A DNA stretch of 63,332 nucleotides, filler included, from Folioceros fuciformis (taxonomy: Eukaryota), in assembly GCA_049999805.1 (NCBI GenBank). It is 5 parts of 5 records of this genome, joined end to end, with 100 filler letters (N's around TTAATTAATTAA, not from the genome) between each part and the next. Parts side by side here need not be neighbours in the genome. Positions count along the whole stretch, not along the records: positions 24,225 to 46,536 come from JBNGIO010005940.1; 4 more parts are not named here. One strand, 5' to 3'. The position numbers and the translations under genes are program-made. Each line of letters opens with the position of its first letter. The stretch's first letter is position 1. Positions 24,125-49,350 of the stretch are shown here, piece after piece. Under the pieces are notes generated by a model. That model made no database searches. It was not told where the DNA came from and was given only the letters and a program-made list of their open reading frames with translations.

Positions 24125-24224
24125 NNNNNNNNNNNNNNNNNNNNNNNNNNNNNNNNNNNNNNNNNNNNTTAATTAATTAANNNNNNNNNNNNNNNNNNNN
24201 NNNNNNNNNNNNNNNNNNNNNNNN
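24125..24224. other. Artificial scaffold linker (N-TTAATTAATTAA-N); same at 46537-46636, 57819-57918 and 61394-61493
   Basis: Identical 100-nt block with a six-frame stop 12-mer in the middle of N runs. Confidence 0.97.
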
Positions 24225-24930
24225 TATATTTAATTATCGTTCAAACAATATTATGTGAGTGAATGAAATGCCTTCAAAATAAAACCAAGCATTTCATTCA
24301 TAAGTAGAGAGGAGATGACATGAACCCATCCTTGTTAAAATATTATGTAATTTGATATTTAAAAAAAGATGCTTACATTTTGCAATACTTGAATTTCACT
24401 TTACGAAATCAATACCGGTACAAAGAATATGCTTCAAATTCTTTTCTTTTAATTTGGCTTCAATAAATCAAGAATTTGAATATATAATATTAACATGTCT
24501 TTCTTTTCTATTGCACTCCAATCTAAGTTCGTCCAGTATAATGTACTTTAAAAAGCAAAAAGTTAGATTCTAGTGAAATTTTAATAATATTAAATAATAA
24601 AATCTATACAAAAAATCTCTCAATATATGATTTTATTTTTCTGACTTTCAAAATTCCATCTACAATCCATGTTCAATAGTCTAGTTTGTATAAAAGATTT
24701 TAAAATATAAATTATAGTAATATAATACTTTTAGTTATTTATTATTTCTAAAAAATTATCTATTATTATTCTAGTATATATCATATATATCTATTTAACT
24801 ATATGATAGTTTATAACTCCTTTGAAAAAAATGCATCAAGATATAATTTGAAGAACTAATACATAATTCATAACTCTATTTATTTTGTACAAATTCTGCG
24901 TAATAAAAATTTTTCATTCATACTTCGTTT

Positions 24931-25544
24931 TCAAAAAACCTTCCACGTTACACAAGGGTCATTTGGATCTACAAACAATTAGAGCATATTAATGTACTAA
25001 TTCAATTGTAGAAAATTAATTGCATCAACAGATTCAAGATTGTTTTTTTTTAATAACAAGTACGTACCTAGCTTAGTGACCGTCGTTGTTATGTCGTCAC
25101 GTTGAGGATCTGACGAGATGCTCGAAAATATCATGCACGATCCTTCTTTGTTGTAGGTGAAGACTAAGCATTGTTCTTGGTTGCAAAACTCACTACATTG
25201 CACTAAGGTACTAGTAGTGGTATCAGCTTGAGGTATGCCTCGCATGATAGTATATGGGTACACATTACATTCACCTGCGATTTTGAACGAGTTAATTATT
25301 TGACTTAAAATTGAACATTTTTTTGTAGAATATAATTTCACTCCGAATCGCATCAGTCGTGCGGGTCAGTCATTAGTGAAGTGTTGGGCTGTCTATCAAT
25401 CAAATTCATCATACATACAAGAGCTGAAAGCAAGTCACACAAGATAATATGAATCGTGTTGATTATTAAAAAGGAAAATTATTTACCTTCTGCGAAACGA
25501 AGTTTCGTGATAAGAGCTAACACTAATATTGTTGTGAAATTCAT
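24931..25544 (-). CDS. Small secreted PAN/apple-like domain protein, 100 aa; exons 25544-25487, 25274-25068, 24968-24931
   Basis: MNFTTILVLALITKLRFAE|GECNVYPYTIMRGIP...QCSEFCNQEQCLVFTYNKEGSCMIF...TKL|DPNDPCVTWKVF*. Two phase-1 GT-AG introns give 303 nt in frame, with a hydrophobic N-terminus and six Cys in PAN spacing. Confidence 0.68.
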
Positions 25545-25962
25545 GTATTGATANNNNNNNNNNNNNNNNNNNNNNNNNNNNNNNNNNNNNNNNNNNNNNN
25601 NNNNNNNNNNNNNNNNNNNNNNNNNNNNNNNNNNNNNNNNNNNNNNNNNNNNNAAATAAGATTCAAAATGTATCACACATCCCTATTTGTACCTCACTAG
25701 AAATCCTTGTTTTTTCAACACTCAAACTATGTAAATATTCACCAACCTTCAGCATATTGCATTAACTATTATAGAATAAAAAAAATAGTGAACGACCTTG
25801 ACCGAAATAAAGATAAGGGAATAATAAAACTTTAAGGTTTACTGTTATTTGAATATTAAATATAATTAATTATTTTTATTTAATAAATTGATAAATATTT
25901 TCATATTACAAACAAAATGGATGATTTCATCCTACAACAATATATGCAATGAGGTGGAACAG

Positions 25963-26062
25963 ATTATTTTTTATTATTGAAAAAAGAAATAGAAAGTCCC
26001 ATCTACTCTGAAGATGAGAGGAACAACCCGAGCAAGGCCAAAAGCCAAAAAGGATACTAGCA
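25963..26062 (-). repeat. Terminal fragment of repeat family A
   Basis: tattttttattattgaaaaaagaaatagaaagtcccatctactc..gaggaacaacc..gcaaggccaaa matches 8137-8250. Confidence 0.7.
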
Positions 26063-26822
26063 AAAATCTCTCAACAAGATGTCTTGTGCAATAAGGAAAG
26101 TATGAGCTACATTTGCTGAAGCTCGGACTTAGGCCAATCCGAAGTTAATCCTTGTCCCTCAAGTGGAAGAATAGAGCGAATGCAAAGCATTTGTGGTAGG
26201 TCTGTTTGTTTGTAAAACAAGGCAGCTCTTGTGTTTGCCTAAGCTGGGTGGTCCCATCACTTGTGTGGAGAACATATCACAGCAGGGCAGCATTTCATTC
26301 ATGTGTTGGGCTTTCATAAGTCTATCCTAATCGAGCATGTGAGAAAACTTCTCCCCATGCATGGATGTGTTACTCACATCAGCCTGTCGGTATCTGTTGA
26401 ATGATGGCCATGGACTTTAATGGTTGACTCGTCAGGGCGCAACGGGTTGCGTTTCGAAGAAGTGTTTTCTTTGCCCTCCTGTGTGATGACCGAACCGTGG
26501 TGCATGAGGCTATGGTGTTCGAAGAGACCCTTGTATGCTGCCTGTCAGTGTAAATCATTTGCAGTATGTATGGTGACTCGAGATGAATTGACATGGGGCC
26601 ATCTCCAGTGGCTCGACTGGAGATGGCTTCAGGTGCTGAGAGATGTACAAAGGTTGCTGGAAGAATCCGGGTAGTTTGAACCAACCTTGGGCCAACAACG
26701 GAGGTGTCATGGCTAATGATGTTGCTGTGACCCTGTCCAGATTCAGGCTGCCGACGCAGGTTGCAGCTCCGCCATGCTGAGAGTGTACTCCTGTCGGATC
26801 CCCGCACGTGCCCTTGCGAGTC

Positions 26823-29800
26823 ATGGTTGTCTGGAGCTTGGTAACAGGAATCGTGAAAAGAGCTCCAGCTTACTTGACGTTCAGACACCAGCCACTGGCA
26901 AGGCACCGGAGAGCTAGGTACAGCACCGTTGCAAGAAAGCCTGCCCTTGTGAAATCGTGCCTGGCTGAGGACGTGCCTTCTCGGCCACAGGTGTCTTGGA
27001 ACCCAACATCGTGGTGGGTGATAGGTTCTGGGGGTTCTAGATTGCCGGATGATTCTACCCTTTACAGGGCTGCAGGATATGGGAGGGGAGTATCTCCTGA
27101 AACCGTGCGCGAGCTGTGTGATCAGGGTCGTGTGATTGAGGGTGTTGAGGCTCTGGGAGTTTTGGTGCAGACAGACGGTCGTGTTTCCAGATCTCTGTTT
27201 TATGCTGTCCTGAAGAAATGTGTTGTGCAGAAGGATCTTGTTCTGGGCCGTCGCTTGCATGCCTTTACGGTGGAAAAGGGGTACGAATCAGATACGTTCC
27301 TGGGCAACCATATCCTGCGAATGTATGCTGCTCATGGCAGGCTGCAAGACGCGATGGATGTGTTGGCAGTGGTTGGAAACCCGGATGCTTTCACCTGGTC
27401 TGCTATCATTTCTGCACATGTCAAAGATGGTCAAGACAGGCAGGCTGTAGAACTGTATCATCGGATGCGCAGGTCAGCTGGGAAGCCAGATGGCCATGTG
27501 TTTGTGACAGCTCTTCAGGCTTGTGCAATGGGATCAGACTTGGAAACGGGGAAGCAGGTGCATGCTGATGTGTTGGCCAGTGGCGTTGAGCCCGACGTGT
27601 TCGTATGTAGTGGCCTGGTAGACATGTATGCAAAGTGTGGCAGCTTGGGGGACGCTCGGAGTGTGTTTGACGGGCTTGGGAAGAAAAATGTTGTGACGTG
27701 GAATGCCATGTTAGGAGGGTATTCCCAGCACGGCCAGGGACAGGAAGCTTTGAGTCTGTACAGGGTTATGCAAGATGAAGGCATTGTTGCACCGGATGCG
27801 GTGACATTCGTGTGCCTCCTTCAGGCTTGTGGAAGTGCAGGCACCCTGGCCTTGGAGAAGGGGAAGGAGCTTCACGCACACATTAGAGAACAAGGACAAC
27901 AATTTGATGTGTCTGTTTGCAATAGTCTGGTGAACATGTATGCAAAGTGTGGCGACTTAGAGGACGCTTTGGAGGTGTTTGACGGGCTCCGCCAAAAAGA
28001 TGTGGTAACGTGGAATTCCATGATTTCAGGGTATTCCCAGCAGGGCATGGTCCACAAAGCCTTTCTTCTTTACAGGAGTATGCAGAATGATGGCGTTGTT
28101 ATACCAAACACTGTGACATTTTCATGCCTTCTGCAGGCTTGTGCAACTGCGGGCAGCCCAGCTTTGGAGAAGGGAAAGGAGCTTCATGCACAGATTAGAG
28201 ATCGAGGACACGAAGCGGTCTTAACCGTGGCCAACAGTTTGGTGACCATGTATGCCAAGTGTGGCAGCTTGGAAGATGCTAGAAGAGTGTTTGATGAACT
28301 TGGTCACAAGAATGTGGTGACATGGAACGCCATGATAGCAGGATATTCTCAGCACGCCATGGGCCACGAAGCCCTGCTTCTGTACAAGGCTATGCAGGAT
28401 GGCATCATTGCACCCGATTCTGTGACATTCGTGAGCCTCCTGCAGGCATGTGCGAGCATGGGTCATTCAGCTGTGGAGAGCGGGAAGGAGCTCCATGCAC
28501 AACTTAAAGAAGGGGGACATCAAACTGACGTGTTTGTAGCAAACAGCCTGGTGAACATGTACGCAAAGTGTGGCAGCTTGGAGGATGCTCAGGTAGTGTT
28601 CAATGGACTTAGTCAAAAGGACGTGGTGACATGGAATACCATGATAGCGGGATATTCTCAACAGGCTATGGGTCGGGAAGCCCTTTGTCTCTATGACCGT
28701 ATGGAAGACGAGGGCGGTGCCTCACCTGATCCTGTGACATTTGCGCACCTCCTGCAGGCGTGTGTGGTTTTGGGCATCCCTGGTTTGAAGAGGGGAAAGG
28801 AGATTCATGAGCAAATTGAACATCGAGGACATAGGTTGGATGCGTTTCTAGCCAGCAGGTTAGTGAACATGTATTCGAAGTGTGGCAGCTTGGAAGAAGC
28901 TCGGACTGTGTTTAATGGGCTTTGTCAAAAAGATGTGCTGACATGGAATGCCATGATAGCAGGGTATGCCCAGCAGGGGGTGGGGCAGGAAGTCCTTCGT
29001 CTGTACAGTTTGATGCAAGAAGATGGCACTAGTTTGCCCAATTCTGCAACATTTGTGTCCCTCCTGCAGGCGTGTGCGAGCATGGGGACCACAGCTTTAG
29101 AGGAAGGGAGGCATCTTCATGCACAAATATGTGATGGATGCCATCAAGCAGATACGTTCATAGCCAGCGGATTGGTGAACATGTATGCAAAGTGCGGTAG
29201 CTTGGAAGATGCTGAGGCAGTGTTTAACGGTCTTCATCAGAAAGAGGTCGCGACGTGGACTTCTCTTATTGCAGGTTATTCCCAGCAGGGCATGGGCCGG
29301 GAAGCCCTTCATCTCTACACGCTAATGCAAGAAGAAGGGATGGTTGAACCCGATTCTGTGACATTTGTGTGCCTCCTGCAGGCATGTGCAAGTGTCGGCA
29401 GCCCAGCTTTGGAGAAGGGGACGCAGCTTCATGTGCAAATTAGAGAAAGAGGGCATGAAGCTGACAAGTTTGTAGCTAACAGTTTGGTAAACATGTATGC
29501 AAAGTGTGGCAGCCTCGAAGCTGCTCGGAGAGTGTTTGACAGACTCGGTCAAAAAGATGTGCTGACATGGAATACCATGATAGCAGGGTATTCCCAGCAG
29601 GGCATGGGCCAAGAATCGCTTCATTTGTACAGTCTTATGCAGGAAAGAGGCACTGCTGCAGCTAATTCTGTTACATTCGTCTGTCTCCTCCAGGCATGTG
29701 CAAGTCTGCGTGGCCCAGGTTTGGACGAGGGGAAGTGGCTTCACGCACAAATCAGAGAAGGAGGACATGAAGCTGATGTGTCCGTCGCCAACAGCTTGGT

Positions 29801-31760
29801 ACACATGTATGCAAAGTGTGGTAGCCTTGAGGACGCCCAGAGAGTGTTTGATGGACTTGGTGCCAAAGATGTGGTCACATGGACTGCCTTAATGGCTGGA
29901 TATTCCCAGCACGGCTGGGCTGAAAAAACTCTTAGTCTCTACATTGCCATGCAAGAAGAGGGCCTTGCTATACCCAATTCTCTCACATTTGTGTCCCTCC
30001 TGCAGGCATGTGCAAGTATGGGGAGGCCCGCATTAGAGGAGGGGAGGAAACTTCATGCGGACGTCAAACAAAGAGGGCATGAAAGTGATCTGTTTGTAGC
30101 CAACAGTTTGATAAACATGTATGCAAAGTGTGGNNNNNNNNNNGATCTGTTTGTAGCCAACAGTTTGATAAACATGTATGCAAAGTGTGGCAGCTTAGAG
30201 GATGCTCAGAGGGTGTTTGACGGGGCTGGGAAAAAAGATACAGTGACGTGGAACGTCTTCATAGTAGCATATGCTGAGCAGGGCAAGAGCCAGGAAGCCC
30301 TTAATCTCTACTCTGCCATGCAGGAAGAAGGCACATCTCAACCCAGTTCTGTGACATTTGTGTGCCTCCTGCAGTTATGTGCACGTGCTGGAATATCAGC
30401 TTTGGAGAGAGGAAAACACCTTCATGAAAAAATTAGAGAATTGGGACTGGAGGCTGATGCGTTGGTTGCCAACAGTTTGGTGGACATGTATGCAAAGTGT
30501 GGCAGCCTAAAAGAGTCTGATAGGGTGTTTTACGAACTTGGGCAGAAGGATGTTGTGACATGGACTGCCTTGATTGCAGGGTATTGCCAACGTGGCATGA
30601 GTCAGGATGCGCTCCGTCTGTACGGGGCTATGCAAGATGAGGGCATTGCTGCACCCAATTCTGTGACATTTGTGTGCCTGCTGGTAGCATGTGCAGCTGA
30701 GGGCAGCCCCGCATTGGAGATGGGAAAACAGCTCCATGCACAGATTAGGGAGCGGGGATATGAAGCGGATATGTTTGTGGCCAGCAGCTTGGTAAACATG
30801 TATGCAAAGTGTGGGAGCATGGAAGATGCCCAGAGGGTGTTTGACAGACTTGTCGTAAAAGATGTGGTGGCATGGACTGCTCTAATTGCCGGGTACTCTC
30901 AGCAGGGGATGGGGGAGGAAGCTCTTCATTTGTACAACGCCATGCAAGAATCGGGCATGGCTGTACCAAATTCCGTGACGTTTGTCTGCCTCCTGCGTGC
31001 ATGTGCAAAGGTTGCAGCGTTGCATGTAGGAAGGCGGCTACATGCACAGATTGAAGAGCAAGGCCTTCAAGCTGATGCCTTTGTAGCTAGCAGTTTGATA
31101 AATATGTACGGGAAGGCTGGGAGCCTGGTTGATGCACAGCAGTTGTTTGATGCGGTTGTGGAAAGAGACGTTGTCACCTGGAATGCACTGATTGCAGGCT
31201 ACGCCTGTCAAGGTGACAGTGAAGCTGTCTTCAACTTGGTGCAGAGAATGGAAGACGATGGCGTACAGCCTATTGGCATCACGTTTCTCAGTGTTGTAAC
31301 GTCATGTAGCCATGCAGGTCTTGTGGACAAAGGGAAGGAGTACTTTCAGACTATGAGCTGCCACCACGGCATCACTCCCACAGTGGAGCATTACACATGC
31401 ATGGTGGATCTCCTGGGCCGTGCAGGTCATCTGGATGAGGCAGTAGGTATGATAAGGACAATGCCCGTGCTGCCTACTGCTGCAGTATGGCACGCTCTGT
31501 TGGGTGCCTGTCATAAGTGGAGCAACGCGGAGTTGGGACACCATGCTTTCCTCCAGGCGGTGAAGCTAGACAAGAGAGATGCAGCAGCATATGTTGCAAT
31601 GTCAAACATATACAACAATGCCCAGATGTGGGAGCAAGCAGAGAAGATGCAAGCCGCGAGAGTAAGAACGGGGGCCTGGAAATATCCAGGTCAGAGTTGC
31701 TGGACAGACATGGATGGACACGTGCATAGCTTTTTGGTCAGGGATGAGAAGTATTTCTAG
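26823..31760 (+). CDS. PLS-class PPR protein, E+ type ending after a WW-type PG box (no DYW catalytic domain), ~1645 aa as assembled; likely organelle RNA-editing specificity factor
   Basis: Intronless ORF with an Arg-rich presequence (RHRRARYSTV), about 12 P-L-S triplets plus P2-L2-S2 (EHYTCMVDLLGRAG), E1/E2, then KYPGQSCWTDMDGHVHSF and stop. Contains a 10-N gap with a 47-bp duplicated flank. Confidence 0.92.
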   Translation: MVVWSLVTGIVKRAPAYLTFRHQPLARHRRARYSTVARKPALVKSCLAEDVPSRPQVSWNPTSWWVIGSGGSRLPDDSTLYRAAGYGRGVSPETVRELCDQGRVIEGVEALGVLVQTDGRVSRSLFYAVLKKCVVQKDLVLGRRLHAFTVEKGYESDTFLGNHILRMYAAHGRLQDAMDVLAVVGNPDAFTWSAIISAHVKDGQDRQAVELYHRMRRSAGKPDGHVFVTALQACAMGSDLETGKQVHADVLASGVEPDVFVCSGLVDMYAKCGSLGDARSVFDGLGKKNVVTWNAMLGGYSQHGQGQEALSLYRVMQDEGIVAPDAVTFVCLLQACGSAGTLALEKGKELHAHIREQGQQFDVSVCNSLVNMYAKCGDLEDALEVFDGLRQKDVVTWNSMISGYSQQGMVHKAFLLYRSMQNDGVVIPNTVTFSCLLQACATAGSPALEKGKELHAQIRDRGHEAVLTVANSLVTMYAKCGSLEDARRVFDELGHKNVVTWNAMIAGYSQHAMGHEALLLYKAMQDGIIAPDSVTFVSLLQACASMGHSAVESGKELHAQLKEGGHQTDVFVANSLVNMYAKCGSLEDAQVVFNGLSQKDVVTWNTMIAGYSQQAMGREALCLYDRMEDEGGASPDPVTFAHLLQACVVLGIPGLKRGKEIHEQIEHRGHRLDAFLASRLVNMYSKCGSLEEARTVFNGLCQKDVLTWNAMIAGYAQQGVGQEVLRLYSLMQEDGTSLPNSATFVSLLQACASMGTTALEEGRHLHAQICDGCHQADTFIASGLVNMYAKCGSLEDAEAVFNGLHQKEVATWTSLIAGYSQQGMGREALHLYTLMQEEGMVEPDSVTFVCLLQACASVGSPALEKGTQLHVQIRERGHEADKFVANSLVNMYAKCGSLEAARRVFDRLGQKDVLTWNTMIAGYSQQGMGQESLHLYSLMQERGTAAANSVTFVCLLQACASLRGPGLDEGKWLHAQIREGGHEADVSVANSLVHMYAKCGSLEDAQRVFDGLGAKDVVTWTALMAGYSQHGWAEKTLSLYIAMQEEGLAIPNSLTFVSLLQACASMGRPALEEGRKLHADVKQRGHESDLFVANSLINMYAKCXXXXDLFVANSLINMYAKCGSLEDAQRVFDGAGKKDTVTWNVFIVAYAEQGKSQEALNLYSAMQEEGTSQPSSVTFVCLLQLCARAGISALERGKHLHEKIRELGLEADALVANSLVDMYAKCGSLKESDRVFYELGQKDVVTWTALIAGYCQRGMSQDALRLYGAMQDEGIAAPNSVTFVCLLVACAAEGSPALEMGKQLHAQIRERGYEADMFVASSLVNMYAKCGSMEDAQRVFDRLVVKDVVAWTALIAGYSQQGMGEEALHLYNAMQESGMAVPNSVTFVCLLRACAKVAALHVGRRLHAQIEEQGLQADAFVASSLINMYGKAGSLVDAQQLFDAVVERDVVTWNALIAGYACQGDSEAVFNLVQRMEDDGVQPIGITFLSVVTSCSHAGLVDKGKEYFQTMSCHHGITPTVEHYTCMVDLLGRAGHLDEAVGMIRTMPVLPTAAVWHALLGACHKWSNAELGHHAFLQAVKLDKRDAAAYVAMSNIYNNAQMWEQAEKMQAARVRTGAWKYPGQSCWTDMDGHVHSFLVRDEKYF

Positions 31761-35042: not shown

Positions 35043-38000
35043 TCAAGGTCGACCTTCACAGCTGCAACAACCAGCTGCAAATCGATGGACGCGGTACCCA
35101 TCCCTTACAACAATGTCTCTCTTCTCAACCCGGGACAGGATCTGGGTGGAACTGTGGCAGTCACTACACATGCGTAAATTCTTGGTTACCAAAAGAGGCG
35201 TGCCGCTGGGAGTGTTCAAGAGACCAAACGCTAGAGCTAGTTTCTCAGCATGCCCACAAAGCGCATCTTCTTTTTCTCTCTCGGAGACAGTCTTCAACAC
35301 CAATTTAGTGTGTGGTACGTGACCTCCTTCTTCTTTCAGACGGGCATTCATGGTCTGTACCCTCAGAGAAATATCCTCTCTGTTTTCTCCGACCACAAAT
35401 CTATGTACCTGTTTCTTTATCTCAATGCCTGCTACTGCATGTTTCTTGGTAGCTCCTGCTACAAGTCTCTGCGCTTCAACCTTGTCCGCATCTGTCCATC
35501 TCCCTGCATCTGCATACACATTGGCCATGAGCACATATGTGGAAGCTCTCTGGGGGTCCAGCCTAACAAGACTTTCGAAACACCGTGCCGCCCTCTCTAC
35601 ATCCCCGTGACTTTTGCAAGCATTCAACAAAGCCGTCAAGCCCACAACATTATTGTGGCTCTCACATGACAACAGCATCTTCTCTGCCTCATCTAATTGG
35701 CCTGCGCGCCCAAGCAGATCAATCATACAAGTGTAATGCTCAATAGTGGGTTTGATGCCATGACGTTCCACCATGACATCAAAGTACTTGCGACCCTCAG
35801 CCACAAGTCCCTGATGACTGCATGCTACTAGAAGACAGGTGAAAGTAACATCATTGGGCTGAAAACCAGCGACTAACATCTCCTCAAAACAAGCCAGTGC
35901 GCTGTGGCCTTCATCACAACTTCCGCACCCACCTATGAGTGCATTCCATGTTACCACATCCTTTGCGGCCAAACAGTCAAAAACCCTGCGCGCCTCTTCC
36001 AGTTCGCCACATTTTGCATACATGTCCACCAGTGAGTTGCCCACCAGTGCTTCATCTAGCTGTCCTCTTTCCACAATCTGTGAGTGCAGTTGCCTCCCCA
36101 GTTGTAAGGCACCAGCACTCGCACAGGCATTCAGAAGGCAAGCAAACGTGACATTGTCAGCCCGAAGTAGGTCTTCCTCCTCCATGTGTTCAAACAGAAC
36201 AAATGCCTCCTGACAGAGACCCTGCTGTGCATACCCAGCTATCAGGGCATTCCATGTCACCACGTCCTTCTTGCCCAGATTGTCAAAGACTCTGCGCGCA
36301 TCCTCAACTTCACCACATTTTACGTACATGTCTACCAAGCAGGTGCCCACTACCAAGTCACCTTCTAGCTGTTCCCTTCCTGCAAGCTGAGAGTGCAGCT
36401 GCCTGCCCTTCTGTAACGCACCACTGCTTGCACAGGCCATCAAGAGGCAAGCAAAAGTAAAATGGTCTGCCAAAATCAGGCCCTCCTGCTCCATTTGCTC
36501 ATACAGACTAAGCGCCTCTTGACCAAGCCCACGTTTTGCATACCCGGAAATAAGGGCATTCCATGTCACCACATCCTTTTTAGCCAAGCTGTCAAAGATC
36601 CGGTGTGCCTCTTCCAGTTCCCCACATTTAGCATACATATCCACCAGGCAGGTGCCCACCAATAAATCATCGAATAATCCTCTTTCCACAATCTCGGAGT
36701 GCAGCTGCTTGCCCTTCTGTAGGGCACCAGCGCTTGCGCAGGCCTTTAGTAGGCAGGAGTAAGTAACATTGTTAGCCGAAATCAGGCCCTCCTGCTCCAT
36801 CTGTCCATACAGAACAAGCGCCTCTTGACCAAGTCCGTGATCTGCATATCCTGCTATCAAGGCTGTCCATGTCACCACATCCTTTGTGGCCAACTTGTCA
36901 AAAATCTGGCGGGCCTCTTCTGGTTCCCCACATTTTGCGTACATGTCCACCAAGCAGGTGCCCACCATTTTGTTATCTAGCTGTCCTCTTTCCACGATCT
37001 GTGAGTGCAGCTGCCTGCCTTTCTGTAAGTCGCCAGTGCTTGCACAGGCCTTCAGGAGGCAAGCAAAAGTAACATGATCAGCCAGAACGAGGCCTTCCTC
37101 CTCCATTTGTCCGTACAGAACAAGGGCTTCTTGACCAAGCCCATGATTTGCATATCCAGCTATCAGGATCGTCCACGTTACGACATCCCTTCTCAATAAG
37201 CTGTCAAAGGCCAGGCGTGCATCTTCAAGTTCGCCACATTTTGCATACATGTCCACCAGGCAGTTGCTCACAACTATGCTATCTAGCTGTCCTCTTGCCA
37301 CAATCCGCGAGTGCAGCTGCCTGCCCTTGTGTAAGGCACTAGGGTTTCCACAGGCCTTCAGAAGGCAAGCGAAGGTAAAATGGTCAGCCAGATTCAGGCC
37401 CTCCTGCTCCATCTGTTCATACAGAGCAAAGGCCTCTTGATCTAACCCATGCTTTGCATACCCAGCAATCAGGGCATTCCATGTCACCACATCTTTTGTG
37501 GCCAGACTGTCAAAGACACGGCGAGCATCTCCTAGTTCTCCACATTTCGCATACATATCCACTAGGCCGCTGCCAACAAACAAATCAGGAGGGATACCAC
37601 TATGCAACACATCGTAGTGTACTTTTCTGCCAGCCTCCAAGTCGGCGGCAAATGCAGAGGCTTGAAGGGCAGCCACAAAAACGTGAGCATTCCCTTCCTC
37701 ACCCGAGCTGCGCATCTCATGGTACAGTTGAATGGCTTCATTGGGTTTGCCAAGTTTAGTATGTGCAGTGATTATAGACGACCACATGAAGGGATCTGGT
37801 TTGCGCACCATATTGAACACTTTCATGGCCTCTTGTAGCCTACCTGAGCCTGAATACATGCGCAGGATATGATTCCCCAAGAACGTATCCGACTCGTACC
37901 CAAGCCTGACAACGACATCGTGAACTCGTCGCCCAACAACCAGATTCCTCTTAGCTGAACAGAGTTTCAGCACGTTAAAAAGCAGGGACTGGGAAATCAC

Positions 38001-38438
38001 ACAATCTGTCTCCGCAAGAAATTCCAGGGCTCCAACGGCCTCAGTAAGCTTCCCCTGTTGACATAACCTGCTCACAGTTCCAACCGTTACGGCCAGTTCT
38101 GATCCTCCAGGCCCGCCAAGCTCAGACCCATCCAGATAGCTCGACTTGGAAGCAGAGGCACCATGGCTCATCTGCCTATCCAAAGCCACGAGCTGCTCAT
38201 CCACCCAAGCTGGCTTGAAAAAACTATCTAACCAGAGGACCTCGCGTGACCCCTTACGCCGGAAGTCAGGCGAACGGGAGCTCTTCTTATATCGCCTGCT
38301 GTCCCACCACATTGTGGGTTCCAGAAAAAATTGTCGCCACAAAAGCTCCTGCTCCTGCCGACGACCATCGCTGGAAATTACTGCCCCAGCCGTACATTTT
38401 CTCGAAAGTATTGGGTTCTTGAGCCTGCTCCACCTCAA
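35043..38438 (-). CDS. PLS-PPR with DYW:KP (GRP-type) deaminase-like domain and N-terminal OSB-type PDF motif; candidate U-to-C editing factor; start codon uncertain
   Basis: Open 1131-codon frame with about 6 PLS triplets, P2L2S2 and E1E2. Modified PG box KKHAVAGIEI, short gating region, HAEKLA, KNLRMCSDCH and terminal CSCEGRP. N-terminal LWRQFFLEPTMWWDSR..K....PDFRRK....LWL. Confidence 0.92.
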   Translation of the reverse strand: MRWSRLKNPILSRKCTAGAVISSDGRRQEQELLWRQFFLEPTMWWDSRRYKKSSRSPDFRRKGSREVLWLDSFFKPAWVDEQLVALDRQMSHGASASKSSYLDGSELGGPGGSELAVTVGTVSRLCQQGKLTEAVGALEFLAETDCVISQSLLFNVLKLCSAKRNLVVGRRVHDVVVRLGYESDTFLGNHILRMYSGSGRLQEAMKVFNMVRKPDPFMWSSIITAHTKLGKPNEAIQLYHEMRSSGEEGNAHVFVAALQASAFAADLEAGRKVHYDVLHSGIPPDLFVGSGLVDMYAKCGELGDARRVFDSLATKDVVTWNALIAGYAKHGLDQEAFALYEQMEQEGLNLADHFTFACLLKACGNPSALHKGRQLHSRIVARGQLDSIVVSNCLVDMYAKCGELEDARLAFDSLLRRDVVTWTILIAGYANHGLGQEALVLYGQMEEEGLVLADHVTFACLLKACASTGDLQKGRQLHSQIVERGQLDNKMVGTCLVDMYAKCGEPEEARQIFDKLATKDVVTWTALIAGYADHGLGQEALVLYGQMEQEGLISANNVTYSCLLKACASAGALQKGKQLHSEIVERGLFDDLLVGTCLVDMYAKCGELEEAHRIFDSLAKKDVVTWNALISGYAKRGLGQEALSLYEQMEQEGLILADHFTFACLLMACASSGALQKGRQLHSQLAGREQLEGDLVVGTCLVDMYVKCGEVEDARRVFDNLGKKDVVTWNALIAGYAQQGLCQEAFVLFEHMEEEDLLRADNVTFACLLNACASAGALQLGRQLHSQIVERGQLDEALVGNSLVDMYAKCGELEEARRVFDCLAAKDVVTWNALIGGCGSCDEGHSALACFEEMLVAGFQPNDVTFTCLLVACSHQGLVAEGRKYFDVMVERHGIKPTIEHYTCMIDLLGRAGQLDEAEKMLLSCESHNNVVGLTALLNACKSHGDVERAARCFESLVRLDPQRASTYVLMANVYADAGRWTDADKVEAQRLVAGATKKHAVAGIEIKKQVHRFVVGENREDISLRVQTMNARLKEEGGHVPHTKLVLKTVSEREKEDALCGHAEKLALAFGLLNTPSGTPLLVTKNLRMCSDCHSSTQILSRVEKRDIVVRDGYRVHRFAAGCCSCEGRP

Positions 38439-39454
38439 GCCTCCATTGTCTGTAAGCGCTGAACTCCCTAAAGTGAAGTGCGCTCAGCGGGACATCCTCC
38501 TAGAATCCCTGCATGCCCATCAATTTGTTCCCCCCACAACGGATCCGGTTGCCACACTAAGGTGGCCATCTTTGCAGTCCCTCAGCCTGGAAGATGAAAT
38601 GCAGAACAAACAGCGCAGGTCGTGACTCCGGAATAGGCTGCAGCGGGTGGACGGCGGCCTGCTGTGCAGTTTGAACCCTCTGGGACTACATTCCTCCTTC
38701 CTTCACATGGAATTCGGAGCTGTGACGTCACCTAAGTGCTAAGCCTCCTAAGTGCTAAGCCTACCAAATGCTTACGTAGGCTTCACGTTTCAGGAAAAGC
38801 TTGAGAGCTGCCCGGCTCAAATTTCGATCTTCACTGCACAATCCCATGGGGCGTGAGGTAATCCACGTCATGGCTGCTTCGTGCAAACCATATCGAACGC
38901 GGGCTGAAAGCCAGCGCTTCACCGGCACTCCGCAATCTCCGCTGCCTCTGCCCCTGTCTGAACTTCCCCTGCTCCTTGGTGCGTGCCCCGCTCGCTTTGG
39001 GTGACTTGGTTCTCGGCTCCCCGGGGGTTTAGCAGACCATGGCACGGGCAGTGGCTATCGCAAGTAGCTCGAGGTGGGAAACCGCGAGTCGCGTGCTTCA
39101 CAGGGCTGGCGTCCAGGCCGACGGCACATGCTTTCTGGCCACCACCTCATGCCGTTTTGCAGATCGGGCTGAGGGTCAAGATGACGGCGCAGTGCAGGAA
39201 CGCGAGGTCACACTTGGAGTCCAATGTGCCCTTCAATCAATGCTCGATTCCTCCTTCTCTAAACTCTTAGCCCAAAGCACAAAAGCTGTGACTTTCAGAT
39301 GAATAGAATTGCACCGCCCTCATTGTGGCGAAGCTGAAGGGGCCGCAAGTGTGGCCCCATCAGCCTTTTTCCTCTCTACTCCCCTCACCAGCCTTCTACC
39401 CGCTACTCCCCTTCCAGGAACAAACCACACTACTCCCCTTCCAAGAACAGAAAT

Positions 39455-43040: not shown

Positions 43041-43239
43041 AACCTCTTAACTTAGGCACAACTCACCGTAGCACTTACATATTTGAGCAATTGTCATGAA
43101 TTAAGAAAAGAATAAATTATCATTGCTATTTGGACTTGGACATTGCAACATGAAGTAAAATGGATCATCATGAAAAGATGATGTGTTAAGACCGAAGTAG
43201 TGTCTTAATCACAATATAAGGCTTATCTCACTTCTACTG

Positions 43240-43985
43240 TCATTATCAACCCCCTTCGTTGGATTGCGGAGGGTTATGAAAGAGCCAAGTATTCTCCCTT
43301 GTAAGACAAATATACTTTCATCCCCATTGCTCTCGATACTCATGGGGCTATGGGGTTTATCAAGGAGTGCACCAAGGTTTATCAGAGTAGTACAAATGGT
43401 GCTCTCCCTCTTTTCTATGTGGCGACTTTCTTTTGACACCGCAAATCCATTGCTTTGCAAAGAGCATGGTGCTCTTCCTCTTTCCAATGTGCTGACTTTC
43501 TTTTGACAACGCATATCCATTGCTTTGCAACGACCATGGTGCTCTCCCTCTTTCCTGTGTGGTTTCTTTCTTTTGACAACACAAATCCATTGCTTTGCAA
43601 AGAGCATGGTGCTCTCCCTCTTTCCAATGTGCTGACTTTCTTTTGACAATGCATATCCATTGCTTTGCAAAGAGCATGGTGCTCTCCCTCTTTCCTGTGC
43701 TGGTGACTTTCGTTTGACAACGCATATCTATTGCTTTGCAAAGAACATTGGGCCAACGTGGTTTTTAGAACAACACCGAACGTAGGTCAAGCGACTTCTT
43801 TGACACCGGTGGTAAGTAGGCCTTTTGTTTATTCCACATCATAACATTTTGGGAGTAGTGCGTAGTTTTTGAGAATGATACTCTAAGGAGCTAGTACCCT
43901 TTTAGGCCTTTGGCCTTGCTCCCATTGTTCTCCTATCTTTGGAGTAGATGAGACGTTCCATCTCTTTTTCAATAATAGAAAATAC
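43240..43985 (+). repeat. Repeat family A copy with a 70-bp tandem array x5 (43396-43745)
   Basis: atggtgctctccctc recurs at 43396, 43466, 43536, 43606 and 43676. Flanks match 9846-10550. Confidence 0.88.
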
Positions 43986-44373: not shown

Positions 44374-44685
44374 CTACAAGTCTAGCTTTGTAGGGGAAGA
44401 TGCAAATGCTAGTCTAATCAAGAAAAATAGCAAGCTTTCTCTCTCACCATCTTCATCCACTGCATCGACCCAACTAGAGTAGACGTCGATTGGTTGGCTT
44501 AGTGCATGGATCTCTGTTTCAAAAGCCACTTCACATACATCACATGTGGCTGTACCCTTCTTTGTTGTCTTGTTCAAAACACAGTACACGCTTTCAAGAT
44601 CGCAAAGTGGACATTTGAAAGGTCCTTGAGATAACTTCGGCTTTTTTTGAACTTTTGGTTTACTGGAGCTCTTACGTCTCACCAT
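44374..44685 (-). CDS. ELF1: Transcription elongation factor ELF1 homolog (divergent; C-terminus may be spliced at GATG|GTGAGA)
   Basis: Basic N-terminus MVRRKSSSKP, zinc ribbon FKCPLC...G.ATCDVC, and I.ALSQPIDVYSSWVDA. Confidence 0.82.
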   Translation of the reverse strand: MVRRKSSSKPKVQKKPKLSQGPFKCPLCDLESVYCVLNKTTKKGTATCDVCEVAFETEIHALSQPIDVYSSWVDAVDEDGERESLLFFLIRLAFASSPTKLDL

Positions 44686-45062
44686 TTTTCCAAATATTTA
44701 ATAACTCTTAGATATAAAAAATATCAAAGAAGATGACTACTGCTATGATTGAGTAGACTACTAATCCACAACATGGGAGCATACATATATAGTGGCTTTT
44801 TAGGAGAAAATTATCGATGTCCAAGGAAAGAATTGCTATGGATAAATATGTAAGGTTAACTAAAAGAATGTTTAAAAAACACTTCTTGGATCATGAATTA
44901 ATTAATTGATATCTTTGGGTTCTTAAATGTTTTCCTGCATGATCCCAAAGGCCAAGGAGAAGGCTAGATATCCAATATATTTTGTAGTTTTTCAATTTAT
45001 AAACTAGAGAAATTAATTAAAGTGTTGGATCTAACCTGTCTAGATCCAACACTTTCCTTGCC

Positions 45063-45283: not shown

Positions 45284-46025
45284 TGGGAAATCATACAATT
45301 TGTCCCTACAAGAAATTCCAAGGCTCCAACAGCCTCAGTAAGCTTCCCTTGTTGACATGACCTGCTCACAATTCCAACCGTCACGGCCAGTTTTGACCCT
45401 CCAAGCCCGCCAAGCTCAGAACCATCCAGATAGCTCGACTTGGAAGCAGAGGCACCATGGCTCATCTACCTATCCAAAGCCACGAGCTGCTCATCCACCC
45501 AAGCTAGCTTGAAAAAACTATCTAACCAAAGGACCTCGCGTGACCCCTTATGTCGGAAGTCAGGCGAATGGGAGCTCTTTTCACATCGCCTGCTATCCCA
45601 CCACATTGTGGGTTCCAGAAAAAATTGTTGCCACAACAGCTCCTGCTCCTGCTCCTGCTCCTGCTCCGGCCGACGACCATCGCTGGAAATTACTGCCCCA
45701 GCCGTACATTTTCTCGAAAGTATTGGGTTCTTGAGCCTGCTCCACCTCAAGCCTCCATTGTCTGTAAGCGCTGAACTCCCTAAAGTGAAGTGCGCTCAGC
45801 GGGACATCCTCCTAGAATCCCTGCATGCCCATCAATTTGTTCCCCCCACAACGGATCGGGTTGCCACACTAAGGCGGCCATCTTTGCAGTCCTTCGGCCT
45901 GAAAGATGAAATGCAAAACAAATAGCACACGCCGTGACTCCGGAATAGGCTGCAACGGGTGGACGACGACCTCACCGTGCAATTTCAACCCTCTGAGACT
46001 CCATTCCTCCTTCCTTCACATGGAA
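45284..46025 (-). pseudogene. Truncated duplicate of the 5' end and upstream region of the PDF-PPR-DYW:KP gene
   Basis: Near-identical to 37990-38712. PDF motif retained (PTMWWDSRRCEKSSHSPDFRHKG). CAG>TAG at 45466-45468, and the copy ends before the PPR array. Confidence 0.9.
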
Positions 46026-46536
46026 CTATACAAGGGAATGATTCCCACACAGCTACTAGTTTCCCAGAATATGTACGTGCCAAGATGGAACCTCTTAACT
46101 TGGGCACAACTCACTGTAGCACTTACATGATTGAGCAATTGTCATGAATTAAGGCAAAAAATAAATTGTAATAACTAAAATGTAACGTGTTCTTGCTATT
46201 TGGACTTGGACAAAATTGTGTTTAGACCGAAGTAGTGTCTTAATCACACCATCAAGGCTTATCTAGCATTTACTGTCATCATCAACCCCCCTGGTTGGGT
46301 TGCGAAGGGTTGTGCAAGCGCCCAAGTCCATAAGTATTCACCCTTGTAAGACAAACATACTTTCATCCACATCATGGGGCTATGGGCAAGGACTTTTCAA
46401 GGTTTATCAGAGTCGTGGGAATCGTGCTCTCCCACTTTCCTATGTGATGACTTTCTTTTGACAACGCATATCCATTGCTTTGCAAAGAGCATTGGGCCAA
46501 CGTGGTTTTTAGAACAACACCGAACGTAGGTCAAGC
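46016..46536 (+). repeat. Duplicate of 42968-~43790 (ORF tail plus repeat family A with a single 70-bp unit)
   Basis: ggaactata.a.gggaat.attcccacacagct.ct.gtttcccagaatatgtacgtgccaag and downstream sequence match. Confidence 0.88.
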
Positions 46537-46839
46537 NNNNNNNNNNNNNNNNNNNNNNNNNNNNNNNNNNNNNNNNNNNNTTAATTAATTAANNNNNNNN
46601 NNNNNNNNNNNNNNNNNNNNNNNNNNNNNNNNNNNNCCTTGTAGCCATGGCTTGTCCAGCAGATGCAGTGCACCTACCTTTCCCTGGCTATCCTTGCCTA
46701 CCTTTCAGGCTCGATGCAGGGGGGGGGGGGGGATGATGCTGATCGCCACTCTATTTTTTCTGCATCAACCTTCAAGGTGGATGTGAGGCAAGAGCCATCA
46801 ACCAAGGTGCTACTCACTGCTGAAACGTTCAACTAGCAC

Positions 46840-49350
46840 ATGGGACCACAGCTCATTGATGAACAGCAGAGGAAGATTAGGGCATTGATTCTCAAGTATG
46901 ATTGCTTCGCGTTCTCCATGAAGGAGTTGAAACGTTGCAACGTCACAACCTTCAAGATCAACCTCACAAGCCTGGAGCCCATATATCACAGAAGGTATCG
47001 GCTGAGTCAATCTAAGTGGGAGATGGTGGATGCAAGGTGCAAGGAATTATGTGAGGCAGGGCTAATCAGACCTTCCAGTTTTGATTACGTTGCTACGACT
47101 GTCATGCCATCTAAGATGGATAGCCATGGCTTATGGACGGAGAAGAGAATGTGTGGCGATTATCGCCCTATCAACGCCATGACAGCCCAGAACAGGTACC
47201 CTATGCCTACATCGGAGGAGATCTTTGACAGCATCGGCAGATTTGTCTACTTCTCCATATTGGATCTAAGGCAAGGGTTCAACCAAGTGCCAGCGGCACC
47301 GGAGGACATAAAAAAGACAGCCTTTCACGGATCACAGCAATTGTGGGAGTGGCTCATGATGCCGTTCGGCTTCAAGAATGCTCCAGTCACCTTCCAAAGG
47401 GTTATGGACATAGTTTTGGCCGGGTCAACCAACCTATTGTGCTACATAGATGACATCCTTGTGCACAGTGTGGACTTTGAGTCACATTTGGAACACTTGG
47501 AGGACCTTTTCCAGTGCCTAAGGAAGGCTCAGCTCAAGTGCCATCGAGCCAGATGTGAATTTGGTATGGATACAATTGCATATTTAGGGCACAAGGTGGT
47601 TCCCAATGACATGATACCACACTCAGCTAAAGTGCAAGCCATTCTACAGGTCAAGGAGCCCACTAATGTCTCTGCCTTGCGAGCATTCCTTGACATTTGC
47701 AATTCTAATCGGATATATATCCAGAACTTCAGCTGTATTGCCAAGCCTCTCAACAACCTGCTCAGGAAGGACGTGGTATGGACTTGGACTGAGCCTATGC
47801 AGGAGGCGTTTGATACCCTGAAATCCAGGTTGACCTTTGCACCCGTGATGGCCATACCTGATTTCAAGCAACCATTTGTGCTACACACAGACTGGAGCAG
47901 CTTGGGCCTTGGGGCAGTTTTGGCTCAGCATGATGAAGAAGGGAATGAGAGAGTGATAGCCTATGCATCCCAAAGCAACAACAAGGCGGAGGCCAATTAC
48001 AACAGTTATGAAGGTGAATGCCTCAGCGCTATTTGTGCAGTTTGCCACTTCCGACCTTATCTCTATGGACAGGCATTCACGCTGGTGACGGACCACCAGC
48101 CCCTCAAGTGGCTTATGGCCAACACAAAGCTCAGCGGTCAGGTGCGTGACTGGGTTGCCTGCTGCAAGCCATGCGATAGGGTGAAGACTTCCTTCACCAT
48201 CCGGCACCCGGAGCTACATCCTTTGCCTATCATGGGCCTCTTTTTCAAATGGTCATGTGACCTGATTGGGGAGCTGCCACGCACTGCATGTGAGAATGTG
48301 TACGTGCTTGTCATGATAGAGCATTCCTCCAAGTGGGTGGAGGCTGTCGCGTTGCCTGACAAGACGTCTAGGAGCACCTCTCAAGCATTCTTGCAGAATG
48401 TACTCAGCCGTTTCGGCAGCTGTGCAGAATGTTTAATTGACCAAGAATCAGAATTCAGGGGTGAATTCCAAGATCTATTGGACGCAGCGTTGATAGATCA
48501 TCGCAGGACAAGCAGAGACCATCCCCAGGCTGATGGTCTTGCAGAGCAAATGGTCCAGACACCCAAGAAGGGCTTGAGGAAGCTCTATCTACAGATGCCT
48601 AAGACCGAGTGGGATCTCGCCTTGCCCTACATCACAATGGGATACCGGATGAGTAAGCATGCCTCTTTGGCACACTTCTCACCGTATTTCCTACTTTTTG
48701 GCCGTGAGCCAATGCCACCTAGCTCCATCGCCAAGCAATTGCAGCAGGTGGTGGACTTAGACAGTCCGGCTGTATGGGCCAAAGTCATTGGGGCGAGGGC
48801 TACAATGTTTAGGCAAGTCATGCCCATGGCTATGGCAAATTTGCACATCGCACAGCACAGGGACACTCTTAGGTATGCCTATACCAGGAGTGGAAGTTTC
48901 AGGCCCAAACTCAAGAAGTTCCAATTTGGAGACTTTGTGTATTTGCAGCGACAGATTGGTGATACACTAGACACCAGCACTAGCCGCCATGTGTTGCGGA
49001 TCAGGGAAGTGAGACCTAATGGCGTGCTGCTGCTACAGGGGGCAGATGGCAGGACTATTACAGATCACACCAAGAATTGTGGCCCCTTCCACCTACCCAA
49101 CTTGGACCCCACCATTGTCACAGCCAATTGGGTCCCTCCAAAGGATTACCCTTGCCAGGTGTGTCGCAGGGTAGATGATGCATAGCTCATGCTCCTCTAT
49201 GATGGATGCAGTGGCGGATTCCATTTGTTTTGCTTGGATCCGCTGCTGACTGAGGTACCTGAACAATTATGGTATTGCCCCCAGTGTGCTATTCCTACAG
49301 AAAAAACTAGAGAAATGTGGATTAGGGCATGCTTGCAGTTGCCCTGCTGA
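46840..49350 (+). mobile_element. Ty3/Gypsy pol remnant: RT-RNaseH-integrase with a C-terminal PHD finger
   Basis: RMCGDYRPIN, LDLRQGFNQ, MPFGFKNAP, YIDDIL, LHTDWS, TDHQPL, integrase core IEHSSKW..HPQADGLAE. After one TAG (49183) the frame continues with the PHD consensus. Internal deletion at the RH/IN junction. Confidence 0.9.

What the first reader, a model, noticed from the sequence alone, without database searches (positions are those of the whole stretch)
35043..38348. OSB-type PDF ssDNA-binding motif fused in frame to a PPR-DYW:KP (GRP) deaminase-like editor
Seen: residues encoded at ~38348-38190 read LLWRQFFLEPTMWWDSRRYKKSSRSPDFRRKGSREVLWLDSFFKPAWVDEQL, in the same uninterrupted frame as the PLS array and the terminal HAEK/CxxC/GRP domain. 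Established: this matches the PDF motif of plant organellar single-stranded DNA-binding (OSB) proteins (LW..FF..P..WWD.R..K.....PDF.HK....LW), and DYW:KP/GRP domains are the candidate U-to-C editing enzymes of hornworts and ferns. Inference: an editor with its own ssDNA/nucleoid tether could edit co-transcriptionally at transcription bubbles or R-loops, gain non-specific RNA affinity, or even act on DNA. I do not recall this architecture being functionally characterised.
Basis: partly seen in the sequence, partly recalled or inferred. Interest (0 to 1): 0.85.

Follow-up and report, generated by a model that had tools for sequence, protein, structure and literature searches.

The report
PDF motif on a PPR editor
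A plant gene for an organelle RNA-editing protein carries, in front of its RNA-reading repeats, a small folded module otherwise known from organelle single-stranded-DNA-binding proteins, and the same combination turns out to be common in liverwort, moss, hornwort, lycophyte and fern relatives.

Summary
Window 35043-38483 (minus strand) is one open frame of 1146 codons: PDF motif, about 20 residues of linker, a PLS-type PPR array, E motif, and a DYW deaminase domain of the KP/GRP kind. The N-terminal motif is a genuine OSB-type PDF motif. It matches the four PDF repeats of a protein named OSB1 at 40-49% identity (E 6e-17 to 2e-14), and 542 proteins match it at E<=1e-3 in a 1.8-billion-protein library.

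The fusion is not peculiar to this gene. 33 of the 120 best full-length PPR homologues carry N-terminal PDF motifs, and they end in DYW, GRP or DRH alike. So it is an old architecture of seed-free land plants, not tied to U-to-C editing. I found no paper describing it, but Gerke 2020, Gutmann 2020 and Zaegel 2006 were not readable.

One caveat. As assembled, no in-frame ATG precedes the motif. A public-run contig differs here by six bases and lacks five, which puts ATG 38569 in frame (1173 codons). The affected 187 bases are identical to a truncated duplicate 7 kb away.

The function of the motif, whether it helps capture RNA or tethers the protein to DNA, is inferred and untested.

The parts
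35043..38483 (-). Open frame of 1146 codons plus the stop (35045-35043): PDF motif, linker, PLS-PPR array, E motif, DYW:KP domain
   Evidence: stop-to-stop frame. PPR 8.1e-122, E_motif 4.1e-11, DYW_deaminase 1.6e-32.
38154..38369 (-). PDF motif (profile envelope). The conserved core LLW...WVDEQL lies at about 38345-38190.
   Evidence: own PDF profile, iE 6.4e-24; matches to OSB proteins. AlphaFold2 pLDDT 93.5, helix, three short strands, helix.
38100..38156 (-). Low-complexity linker between the PDF module and the first PPR helices
   Evidence: residues 72-86 and 88-90 of the 300-residue model have pLDDT below 50. Both flanks are above 90.
35610..38084 (-). PLS-type PPR array, about seven near-identical P-L-S triplets plus lead and terminal motifs. 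The boundaries are approximate.
   Evidence: 15 PF01535 stretches; the 90-residue unit recurs seven times in the gene; helix pairs from model residue 96 onward.
35436..35609 (-). E motif
   Evidence: PF20431, residues 959-1016.
35046..35324 (-). DYW deaminase domain, KP class, GRP variant
   Evidence: PF14432, residues 1054-1144; aligned with GRP, DRH and DYW relatives.
38567..38569 (-). Upstream ATG. It is out of frame in the window, and in frame in the version seen in public run X1.
38484..38486 (-). TGA that closes the main frame upstream in the window as assembled
38359..38545 (-). 187-base block identical to the duplicate at 45.3-46.0 kb. It contains every difference between the window and the X1 contig.
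45284..46025 (-). Truncated duplicate of the gene's 5' end, with a second PDF copy at 45666-45451. It has a stop after the motif and a frame change, so it is a pseudogene fragment.
   Evidence: iE 1.4e-20. ORFs; 742 columns, 91% identity.

Best explanation
This is a nuclear gene, probably of a hornwort judging by the GRP ending, for a PLS-class PPR RNA-editing factor of the DYW:KP kind, the class linked to U-to-C editing. It carries one genuine PDF motif as a separately folded N-terminal module on a flexible linker.

It belongs to a large and old group of 'PDF-PPR' proteins of seed-free land plants. Members have canonical DYW, GRP or DRH endings, or no DYW domain. I did not find this group described in print.

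Most likely mechanism (inferred, not shown): the PPR array reads its target RNA with the N-terminal repeats toward the 5' end, and the DYW:KP domain acts at the 3' end of the footprint. The PDF module would then sit 5' of the footprint and add sequence-independent binding of single-stranded nucleic acid. That would raise the affinity or on-rate for unfolded RNA, an aid built into the same protein.

What is shown: the sequence, the domain order, the homology to OSB PDF motifs, the predicted fold with its linker, and the wide distribution. What is inferred: what the motif binds here, and that it is translated in this copy.
For: Architecture:
- One open frame with PPR, E and DYW domains.
- KP/GRP features are shown and defined in PMC9478123 (passages read).

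PDF homology:
- One search gave 542 hits at E<=1e-3.
- Searches found SSB+PDF proteins in 16 of the 89 hits scanned.
- Searches returned rows named OSB1, OSB2 and OSB3.
- One search aligned the motif to four repeats of a named OSB1 at 40-49% identity.

Discrete module:
- AlphaFold2 gives pLDDT 93.5 for the motif alone.
- In a 300-residue model the PDF part is above 90, the linker below 50, and the PPR part above 95.

The fusion is real and widespread:
- 15 of the 150 top motif hits are PPR proteins with the motif at the N-terminus.
- 31 of the 120 top profile hits are PPR proteins with 2-3 N-terminal PDF copies. None of them lists PF00436.
- 33 of the 120 best full-length homologues carry the motif. 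They include Calypogeia (liverwort), Diphasiastrum (lycophyte), a GGRP-ended relative (P0278, 57% identity) and an SDRH-ended one (P0298). A moss protein (Sphagnum, P0101) and fern proteins from Adiantum, Ceratopteris and Pteridium come.
- The Pteridium rows are transcript-derived ORFs that start with Met upstream of the motif.

Constraint in the PPR setting: D23, R25, K28, D35 and F36 are invariant across the 29 rows of A4.

One lineage of motifs: 115 of 122 PPR-linked PDF motifs fall in one FastTree clade of 146 tips (support 87). The label changes 17 times on the tree, against 112-115 in the five label shuffles printed of 200 run.

PDF binds ssDNA in OSB proteins: reviews PMC6963530 and PMC4166229 (passages read).
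Against: - No binding, localisation or editing data exist for any PDF-PPR protein that I could find.
- Review PMC4166229 says OSB1 and OSB2 prefer ssDNA over RNA. That favours a DNA tether over an RNA aid.
- In the window as assembled, no in-frame ATG precedes the motif. The version with ATG 38569 in frame rests on a single contig of one public run.
- The window copy has R at a position that is H in 90% or more of the rows, and H instead of P in the KP box. It could therefore be a decaying copy.
- Two close GRP relatives (P0311, P0316) show no PDF motif, so the motif is dispensable for some family members, or their gene models are cut short.
- The tree rests on about 60 columns and FastTree. 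Related sequences share labels, so the low number of label changes overstates the support.
Confidence: 0.55

Rival explanations
1. DNA or nucleoid tether. The PDF module binds single-stranded organelle DNA, such as transcription bubbles, R-loops or replication intermediates. This holds the editing factor at the nucleoid so that editing happens as the RNA emerges.
For: - The only activity reported for PDF motifs is ssDNA binding, with preference over RNA and dsDNA (PMC4166229 and PMC6963530, passages read).
- The window's motif keeps almost all conserved positions.
- A flexible linker suits a tether.
Against: - No localisation or binding data exist for any PDF-PPR protein.
- The motif also sits on ordinary DYW-ended factors in lineages with modest editing, so nothing ties it to a special editing mode.
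- Many single-strand binders take RNA as well as DNA (general knowledge, not tested here).
Confidence: 0.2
2. In this particular copy the motif is not part of the protein, or the copy is a pseudogene. Translation would start at the Met inside the motif or at MSHGAS, or not at all, because the frame upstream is closed.
For: - TGA at 38486-38484 and no upstream in-frame ATG in the window.
- The truncated duplicate at 45.3-46.0 kb has the same arrangement.
- The H-to-R change in the motif and the P-to-H change in the KP box.
Against: - 1146 codons remain open, including 45 codons upstream of the motif.
- A contig of public run X1 covers 38261-39409. Its six base differences and five missing bases give a continuous 1173-codon frame from ATG 38569.
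- All these differences fall inside a 187-base block that is identical between the gene and its duplicate, while the flanks differ at 8.6% of positions (P about 5e-8). That points to gene conversion or a polishing error in the assembly.
- Relatives P0080, P0278 and P0298 have a Met start 40-80 residues upstream of their motif.
Confidence: 0.2
3. The PDF module works through proteins, not nucleic acids. It would drive oligomerisation or recruit partners such as OSB or other nucleoid proteins, or it would be an import or regulatory element.
For: - OSB2 is reported to form tetramers (PMC6963530, passage read).
- The predicted fold has no clear relative among solved nucleic-acid-binding folds.
Against: - The reviews assign ssDNA binding to the motif itself.
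- The conserved aromatic and basic positions (W, F, R, K) are what one expects of a single-strand binder. This is inference.
Confidence: 0.08
4. The fusion is an artefact, either of gene models that join an OSB gene to a PPR gene or of assembly.
For: Many database rows are automatic gene models. One of them (P0191) has a second motif pair in the middle of the protein, which looks like a merged model.
Against: - In the window the motif and the PPR array share one uninterrupted frame with no intron needed.
- Transcript-derived fern ORFs show the same layout.
- No PDF-PPR row lists the OB-fold domain that an OSB gene would bring.
- PPR-linked motifs form a clade of their own.
Confidence: 0.02

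Closest known systems
[quoted passage not shown]
   Same: The roughly 55-residue PDF motif is shared, with its LW..FF..P..WWD.R..K....PDF..K.....LW......P.WV pattern. It is 40-49% identical to each PDF repeat of a named OSB1.
   Different: - No OB-fold/SSB domain.
- The motif is N-terminal and single, not C-terminal after an OB fold.
- The rest of the protein is an RNA-editing factor.
It shares a module with the OSB family but is not a member.
PPR-DYW:KP proteins, GRP variant (hornwort reverse-editing factors; designer KP2 and KP3 of Ichinose et al. 2022, PMC9478123)
   Same: PLS array, E motif, and a DYW-type domain with HAE, CxxCH, no xHP tripeptide, Met in NLRMC and a terminal GRP.
   Different: - It carries an N-terminal PDF module. 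None of the passages I read in PMC9478123 mentions such a module.
- The KP box reads K-H-A-V-A where close relatives have K-P-A-V-A.
PDF-PPR proteins in public databases, annotated only as hypothetical or PPR proteins
   Same: Same domain order, PDF then PLS-PPR with or without E/DYW. Examples: Diphasiastrum complanatum P0269 and P0189, Adiantum P0075, Ceratopteris P0093, Sphagnum P0101, Calypogeia P0284, and the unnamed P0080 and P0278, which end in GGRP.
   Different: Lycophyte members often have 2-3 PDF copies, while the window gene has one. Most end in DYW or lack the domain, while this one ends in GRP.
MORF/RIP proteins of seed plants (helpers acting from a separate protein that raise RNA binding of PLS editing factors)
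   Same: Functional analogy only. Both would be accessory elements that improve RNA binding by PLS-type PPR editing factors. Review PMC10226603 (passages read) says MORFs influence RNA-binding activity.
   Different: There is no sequence relation. MORFs are separate proteins that bind the PPR array. That they are restricted to seed plants is recalled, not checked here.

Membership tests
PDF motif (as defined for OSB proteins) | About 50 residues with the conserved Pro-Asp-Phe signature and flanking W/F/R/K pattern, significantly similar to OSB PDF motifs | tested here: met
   542 hits at E<=1e-3; four repeats of a named OSB1, E 6e-17 to 2e-14; all invariant columns kept, with one near-invariant H replaced by R.
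PDF motif (as defined for OSB proteins) | Binds single-stranded DNA | not testable with these tools
   Known only for Arabidopsis OSB proteins, from reviews. Needs EMSA with the recombinant module.
OSB protein family | Central OB-fold (SSB-like) domain upstream of the PDF motif(s) | tested here: not met
   Pfam and NCBIfam find nothing in the N-terminal 140 residues at E<=10. No PF00436 is among the 25 families shown of 37 for the whole protein. Only 45 codons are open upstream of the motif, too few for an OB fold.
PLS-class PPR-E-DYW editing factor | Tandem PPR motifs followed by an E motif and a C-terminal DYW deaminase domain with HxE and CxxC | tested here: met
   PPR 8.1e-122, E_motif 4.1e-11, DYW_deaminase 1.6e-32. 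HAE and CSDCH are present.
DYW:KP class, GRP variant | HAE instead of HSE in the active site, and a last tripeptide of GRP | tested here: met
   alignment. Definition from PMC9478123.
DYW:KP class, GRP variant | KP-type N-terminal box in place of the PG box | tested here: inconclusive
   the window reads KKHAVAGIEI. Four GRP relatives read K/R-K-P-A-x-A-G-I-E-V. The box is of the KP type, but the P is replaced by H.
DYW:KP class, GRP variant | U-to-C editing activity at an organelle site matched by the PPR code | not testable with these tools
   No organelle genome or editome of the source organism is at hand. Activity is shown only for designer GRP proteins (PMC9478123).

The most novel reading that the evidence does not exclude
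PDF-PPR is an ancient, so far undescribed class of land-plant RNA-editing factors. In it, a single-strand-binding module borrowed from organelle DNA-maintenance proteins is built into the editor itself.

It would either be the seed-free plants' built-in counterpart of the MORF/RIP helpers, or it would physically couple editing to single-stranded organelle DNA (transcription bubbles, R-loops). Either way it would link DNA maintenance and RNA editing machinery. It would also offer a small portable affinity module for designer C-to-U and U-to-C editors.
Probability: 0.25. Interest if true: 0.8.

Novelty: new variant of a known kind. Interest (0 to 1): 0.6.

Why it matters
PPR-DYW proteins are the specificity and catalytic factors of plant organelle RNA editing, and they are being turned into programmable C-to-U and U-to-C editors. 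A conserved extra module on a quarter or so of the close homologues sampled here (33 of 120) would be a missing piece in how these proteins find or hold their substrates in hyper-editing lineages. That module is otherwise known only for single-stranded DNA binding in organelle genome maintenance.

The idea is directly testable: run binding assays and E. coli editing assays with and without the motif. It also widens the known use of the PDF motif beyond OSB proteins, which recent OSB surveys exclude by requiring an OB fold (PMC13393729, passages read).

Tried and rejected
- **Own genome:** none is held for this window, so paralogues could not be counted in the source genome.
- **RNA evidence:** no RNA holder is listed for 37600-39400. 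The four runs laid are contigs of uncertain kind and cannot show transcription, starts or strand.
- **Word-indexed search:** the N-terminal 140 residues searched among proteins of 630-2006 residues found nothing. This was a sensitivity limit, since later searches did find such proteins.
- **ESM Atlas:** no usable hit for the N-terminal 111 residues.
- **Intron hypothesis:** I looked for an intron that would join ATG 38569 to the main frame. Reading by hand, the only frame-compatible GT..AG pairs give 26-44 bases, too short to be convincing. Rejected in favour of the five-base difference seen in run X1.
- **Fold relatives of the PDF model:** Foldseek against the PDB gave no match at E<=0.001. 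VIA-align against 48,161 chains gave a best Z of 4.5, with none at 5 or more. A profile of A2 against PDB sequences gave no hit at E<=1. This does not show that the fold is new.
- **Neighbouring PPR gene (26781-31760, plus strand):** its N-terminus reads a faintly PDF-like 'WNPTSWW...LPDD', but my profile finds no match there at E<=10, and the similarity to the studied gene starts only after the motif.
- **Earlier findings of this scan:** none by sequence or for this genome.
- **Literature:** searches for 'PDF motif' with PPR/pentatricopeptide, OSB1 with DYW, 'organellar single-stranded DNA' with DYW, and PDF-PPR / PPR-PDF / 'PDF-like motif' / OSB-like found no description of the fusion. Gerke et al. 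2020, Gutmann et al. 2020 and Zaegel et al. 2006 are not held, and supplements are closed. A mention there cannot be excluded.
- **Correction:** my notebook says 15 of 62 SSB-positive proteins. On recount it is 13 of 62.
Full report
**What is there**

The minus strand of window 35043-38483 is a single stop-to-stop frame of 1146 codons. Pfam finds PPR repeats (PF01535, 8.1e-122, 15 stretches), an E motif (PF20431, 4.1e-11, residues 959-1016) and a DYW deaminase domain (PF14432, 1.6e-32, residues 1054-1144). Neither Pfam nor NCBIfam finds anything in the N-terminal 140 residues at E<=10, so the motif has no curated model and there is no OB fold.

**Is the N-terminal stretch a PDF motif?**

Yes.
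- phmmer with the first 111 residues against 1.84 billion representative proteins gave 542 proteins at E<=1e-3, 123 at <=1e-10 and 14 at <=1e-30. All match query residues about 40-105, often several times per protein and up to 13 times.
- I scanned 89 of the 150 listed hits with Pfam. 16 have the SSB/OB-fold domain PF00436 upstream of the match: 3 of 27 and 13 of 62. The other 61 were not scanned.
- One SSB-positive hit is named 'OSB1, mitochondrial-like' (P0071).
- A profile of the window motif plus 14 PPR-linked motifs (A2), searched among longer proteins, gave 1453 hits at E<=1e-3 of 8000 scored. Many rows are named OSB1, OSB2 or OSB3.
- BLASTP against a protein named OSB1 (P0181) aligns the motif to each of its four repeats at 40-49% identity, E 6e-17 to 2e-14.
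- Reviews describe the PDF motif as a 50-residue element of OSB proteins that is responsible for ssDNA binding and is preferred over dsDNA and RNA (PMC6963530 and PMC4166229, passages read).
- The window copy keeps all invariant columns and all but one near-invariant column of the motif in alignment A3. The exception is R where 90% or more of the rows have H.

**A discrete module**

AlphaFold2 on the 72-residue motif with a 37-row alignment gives mean pLDDT 93.5 and pTM 0.79. The model has a helix (residues 2-16), short strands at 21-23 and 36-38 with a two-residue one at 44-45, and a second helix (56-70). A 300-residue model (alignment A4, 29 rows) keeps the same module above pLDDT 90. Residues 72-86 and 88-90 fall below 50, and regular PPR helix pairs above 95 follow from residue 96. 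The motif is therefore a small folded domain on a flexible linker of roughly 20 residues. I found no clear fold relative among solved structures, which does not show that the fold is new.

**The deaminase domain**

I aligned the domain with four GGRP-ended relatives, one DRH-ended relative and three DYW-ended proteins. The window protein groups with the GRP type. It has HAE (not HSE), CSDCH, the four-residue gap where canonical domains have xHP, NLRMC, and a terminal GRP. Its N-terminal box reads K-K-H-A-V-A-G where the relatives read K-K-P-A-x-A-G.

PMC9478123 (passages read) defines DYW:KP by these three regions. It states that GRP and DRH are the two hornwort variants, and it reports U-to-C editing in E. 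coli by two designer GRP proteins at about 26% and 22%. The source is therefore probably a hornwort (inference), and the enzyme class is more than a candidate.

**The fusion is widespread**

- Of the 150 best motif hits, 15 are PPR proteins, always with the motif N-terminal to the array. Two of them also have a DYW domain: one ends in GGRP (P0080) and one in DYW (Sphagnum compactum, P0101).
- Of the 120 best profile hits, 31 are PPR proteins with two or three N-terminal PDF copies. Most are from the lycophyte Diphasiastrum complanatum. Four have PF14432 and none lists PF00436. This list favours multi-copy proteins.
- Of the 120 best full-length homologues of the window protein, chosen without regard to the motif, 33 carry it at E<=1e-3 by my profile. 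Eleven end in GDYW. One is from the liverwort Calypogeia fissa. One ends in GGRP (P0278, 57% identical, motif at 60-124) and one in SDRH (P0298, motif at 42-106).
- Two other GRP relatives (P0311, P0316) show no motif.
- None of the five Cryptomeria rows or the four rows named Gb_ has it. This is too small a sample to claim absence from seed plants.
- Fern rows from a Pteridium transcriptome are transcript-derived ORFs that begin with Met upstream of the motif. So the layout is not only a product of gene prediction.

**One lineage of motifs**

A FastTree of 688 PDF motifs puts 115 of the 122 PPR-linked motifs in one clade of 146 tips (support 87). The label changes 17 times on the tree, against 112-115 in the five label shuffles printed of 200 run. 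The 31 other tips in that clade are of two kinds: short N-terminal fragments, and the last PDF copy of SSB-bearing proteins, several from ferns. Related sequences share labels and the alignment is about 60 columns long. I read this only as consistent with one or a few old fusion events.

**Is the motif translated in this copy?**

As assembled, the frame is closed by TGA 38486-38484, and the first in-frame Met lies inside the motif. An ATG at 38569 opens a 33-codon frame that is offset from the main frame.

The window also holds a truncated duplicate of the gene's 5' end at 45284-46025. It is 91% identical over 742 columns, carries a second PDF copy, and has a stop after the motif followed by a frame change. 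Gene and duplicate differ at 46 of the 536 aligned positions outside the block (8.6%) but share a block of 187 identical bases, 38545-38359 (P about 5e-8).

A 1144-base contig of public run X1 covers 38261-39409. This run holds 89% of the sampled words, and its other seven listed pieces are identical to the window. The contig differs from the window only inside that block: six substitutions between 38408 and 38495, and five bases left out at 38481. Applying these differences gives a continuous frame of 1173 codons from ATG 38569 to the GRP stop, whichever of three placements of the omission is used.

The simplest reading is that the gene's own sequence was overwritten in this block by that of the pseudogene fragment. 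That could have happened by gene conversion in the sequenced strain or by polishing of the assembly, and an intact version exists. This rests on one contig of one run of unknown kind. Expression is unknown.

**How it probably works**

This section is inference. PPR arrays bind RNA with their N-terminal repeats toward the 5' end, and the DYW domain acts next to the 3' end of the footprint (established for PPR proteins; recalled). A single-strand-binding module on a flexible tether at the N-terminus would therefore reach nucleic acid 5' of the footprint.

I favour a sequence-independent aid to capturing or holding unfolded RNA. Its role would be analogous to the MORF/RIP helpers that influence RNA binding of PLS proteins (PMC10226603, passages read). 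That MORFs are limited to seed plants is recalled, not checked.

It is favoured by the reported preference of OSB1 and OSB2 for ssDNA over RNA. Nothing here discriminates between the two.

Because the motif sits on DYW-, GRP- and DRH-ended proteins alike, it is not tied to the direction of editing.

**Novelty**

No paper in the searchable library joins the PDF motif with PPR proteins. A 2026 survey of OSB evolution required both an OB fold and a PDF domain, and it does not mention PPR (PMC13393729; term search over its main text, 12 passages read). Gerke 2020, Gutmann 2020 and Zaegel 2006 could not be read, and supplements are closed, so an earlier mention cannot be excluded.

I rate this a new variant of a known kind, of moderate to good interest. 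It is a real, conserved and testable feature of many editing factors, but so far it is an observation about architecture without functional data.

Noticed in passing
window 26781-31760 (+): A second, very long PLS-PPR frame of 1659 codons lies 3 kb from the studied gene on the other strand. It ends after an E motif with no DYW domain in any frame of the window. It has no recognisable PDF motif, and it contains an N gap flanked by a repeated 'DLFVANSLINMYAKC'.
   Followed up: partly
window 35877-37655 (-): The PPR array of the studied gene consists of about seven P-L-S triplets that are very similar to one another. This points to recent internal tandem duplication. Public-run contigs also join different triplets, which produces many apparent 'skips'.
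   Followed up: partly
window 38228-38401: Several distinct contigs of two public runs carry variants at the start of the PDF motif. G at 38343 is seen in 7 contigs of X1 and 23 of X2. G at 38358 is seen in 8 and 18. This hints that many paralogues share this coding sequence in two related organisms.
   Followed up: no
window 1193-3494 (+): An R2R3-type MYB gene (two Myb DNA-binding repeats, PF00249 8.1e-26), apparently split by an intron, followed by a long low-complexity C-terminal frame.
   Followed up: partly
window 44374-44697 (-): A small frame encoding a transcription elongation factor Elf1-like zinc ribbon (PF05129, 5.2e-23), between the studied gene and its duplicated 5' fragment.
   Followed up: partly
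window 43209-43786 and 46372-46588 (-): Tandemly repeated units give overlapping frames with the recurring peptide 'KRESTMLFAKQWICVVKRK'. A similar stretch lies just beyond the duplicate fragment, so the duplicated segment may be bounded by this repeat.
   Followed up: no
window 19729-21603, 46837-49185, 52243-56842, 57875-59692, 61450-63234 (+): Several LTR-retrotransposon coding regions. Pfam was run only on 52243-55900 (copia-type gag, integrase and RVT_2) and 46837-49185 (gypsy-type RVT_1, RNase H and integrase). The other three are read from their ORF translations. Some are interrupted by N gaps.
   Followed up: partly
window 24001-26000: A 2-kb stretch with G+C of 0.26, against about 0.5 elsewhere in the window.
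   Followed up: no
P0002 (Kingdonia uniflora, 1160 aa) and P0060 (Coptis chinensis, 1526 aa): PDF motifs also occur outside OSB and PPR proteins. One protein has 13 copies and no Pfam domain. Another has PDF motifs ahead of a kinesin motor domain. Either could be a merged gene model.
   Followed up: no
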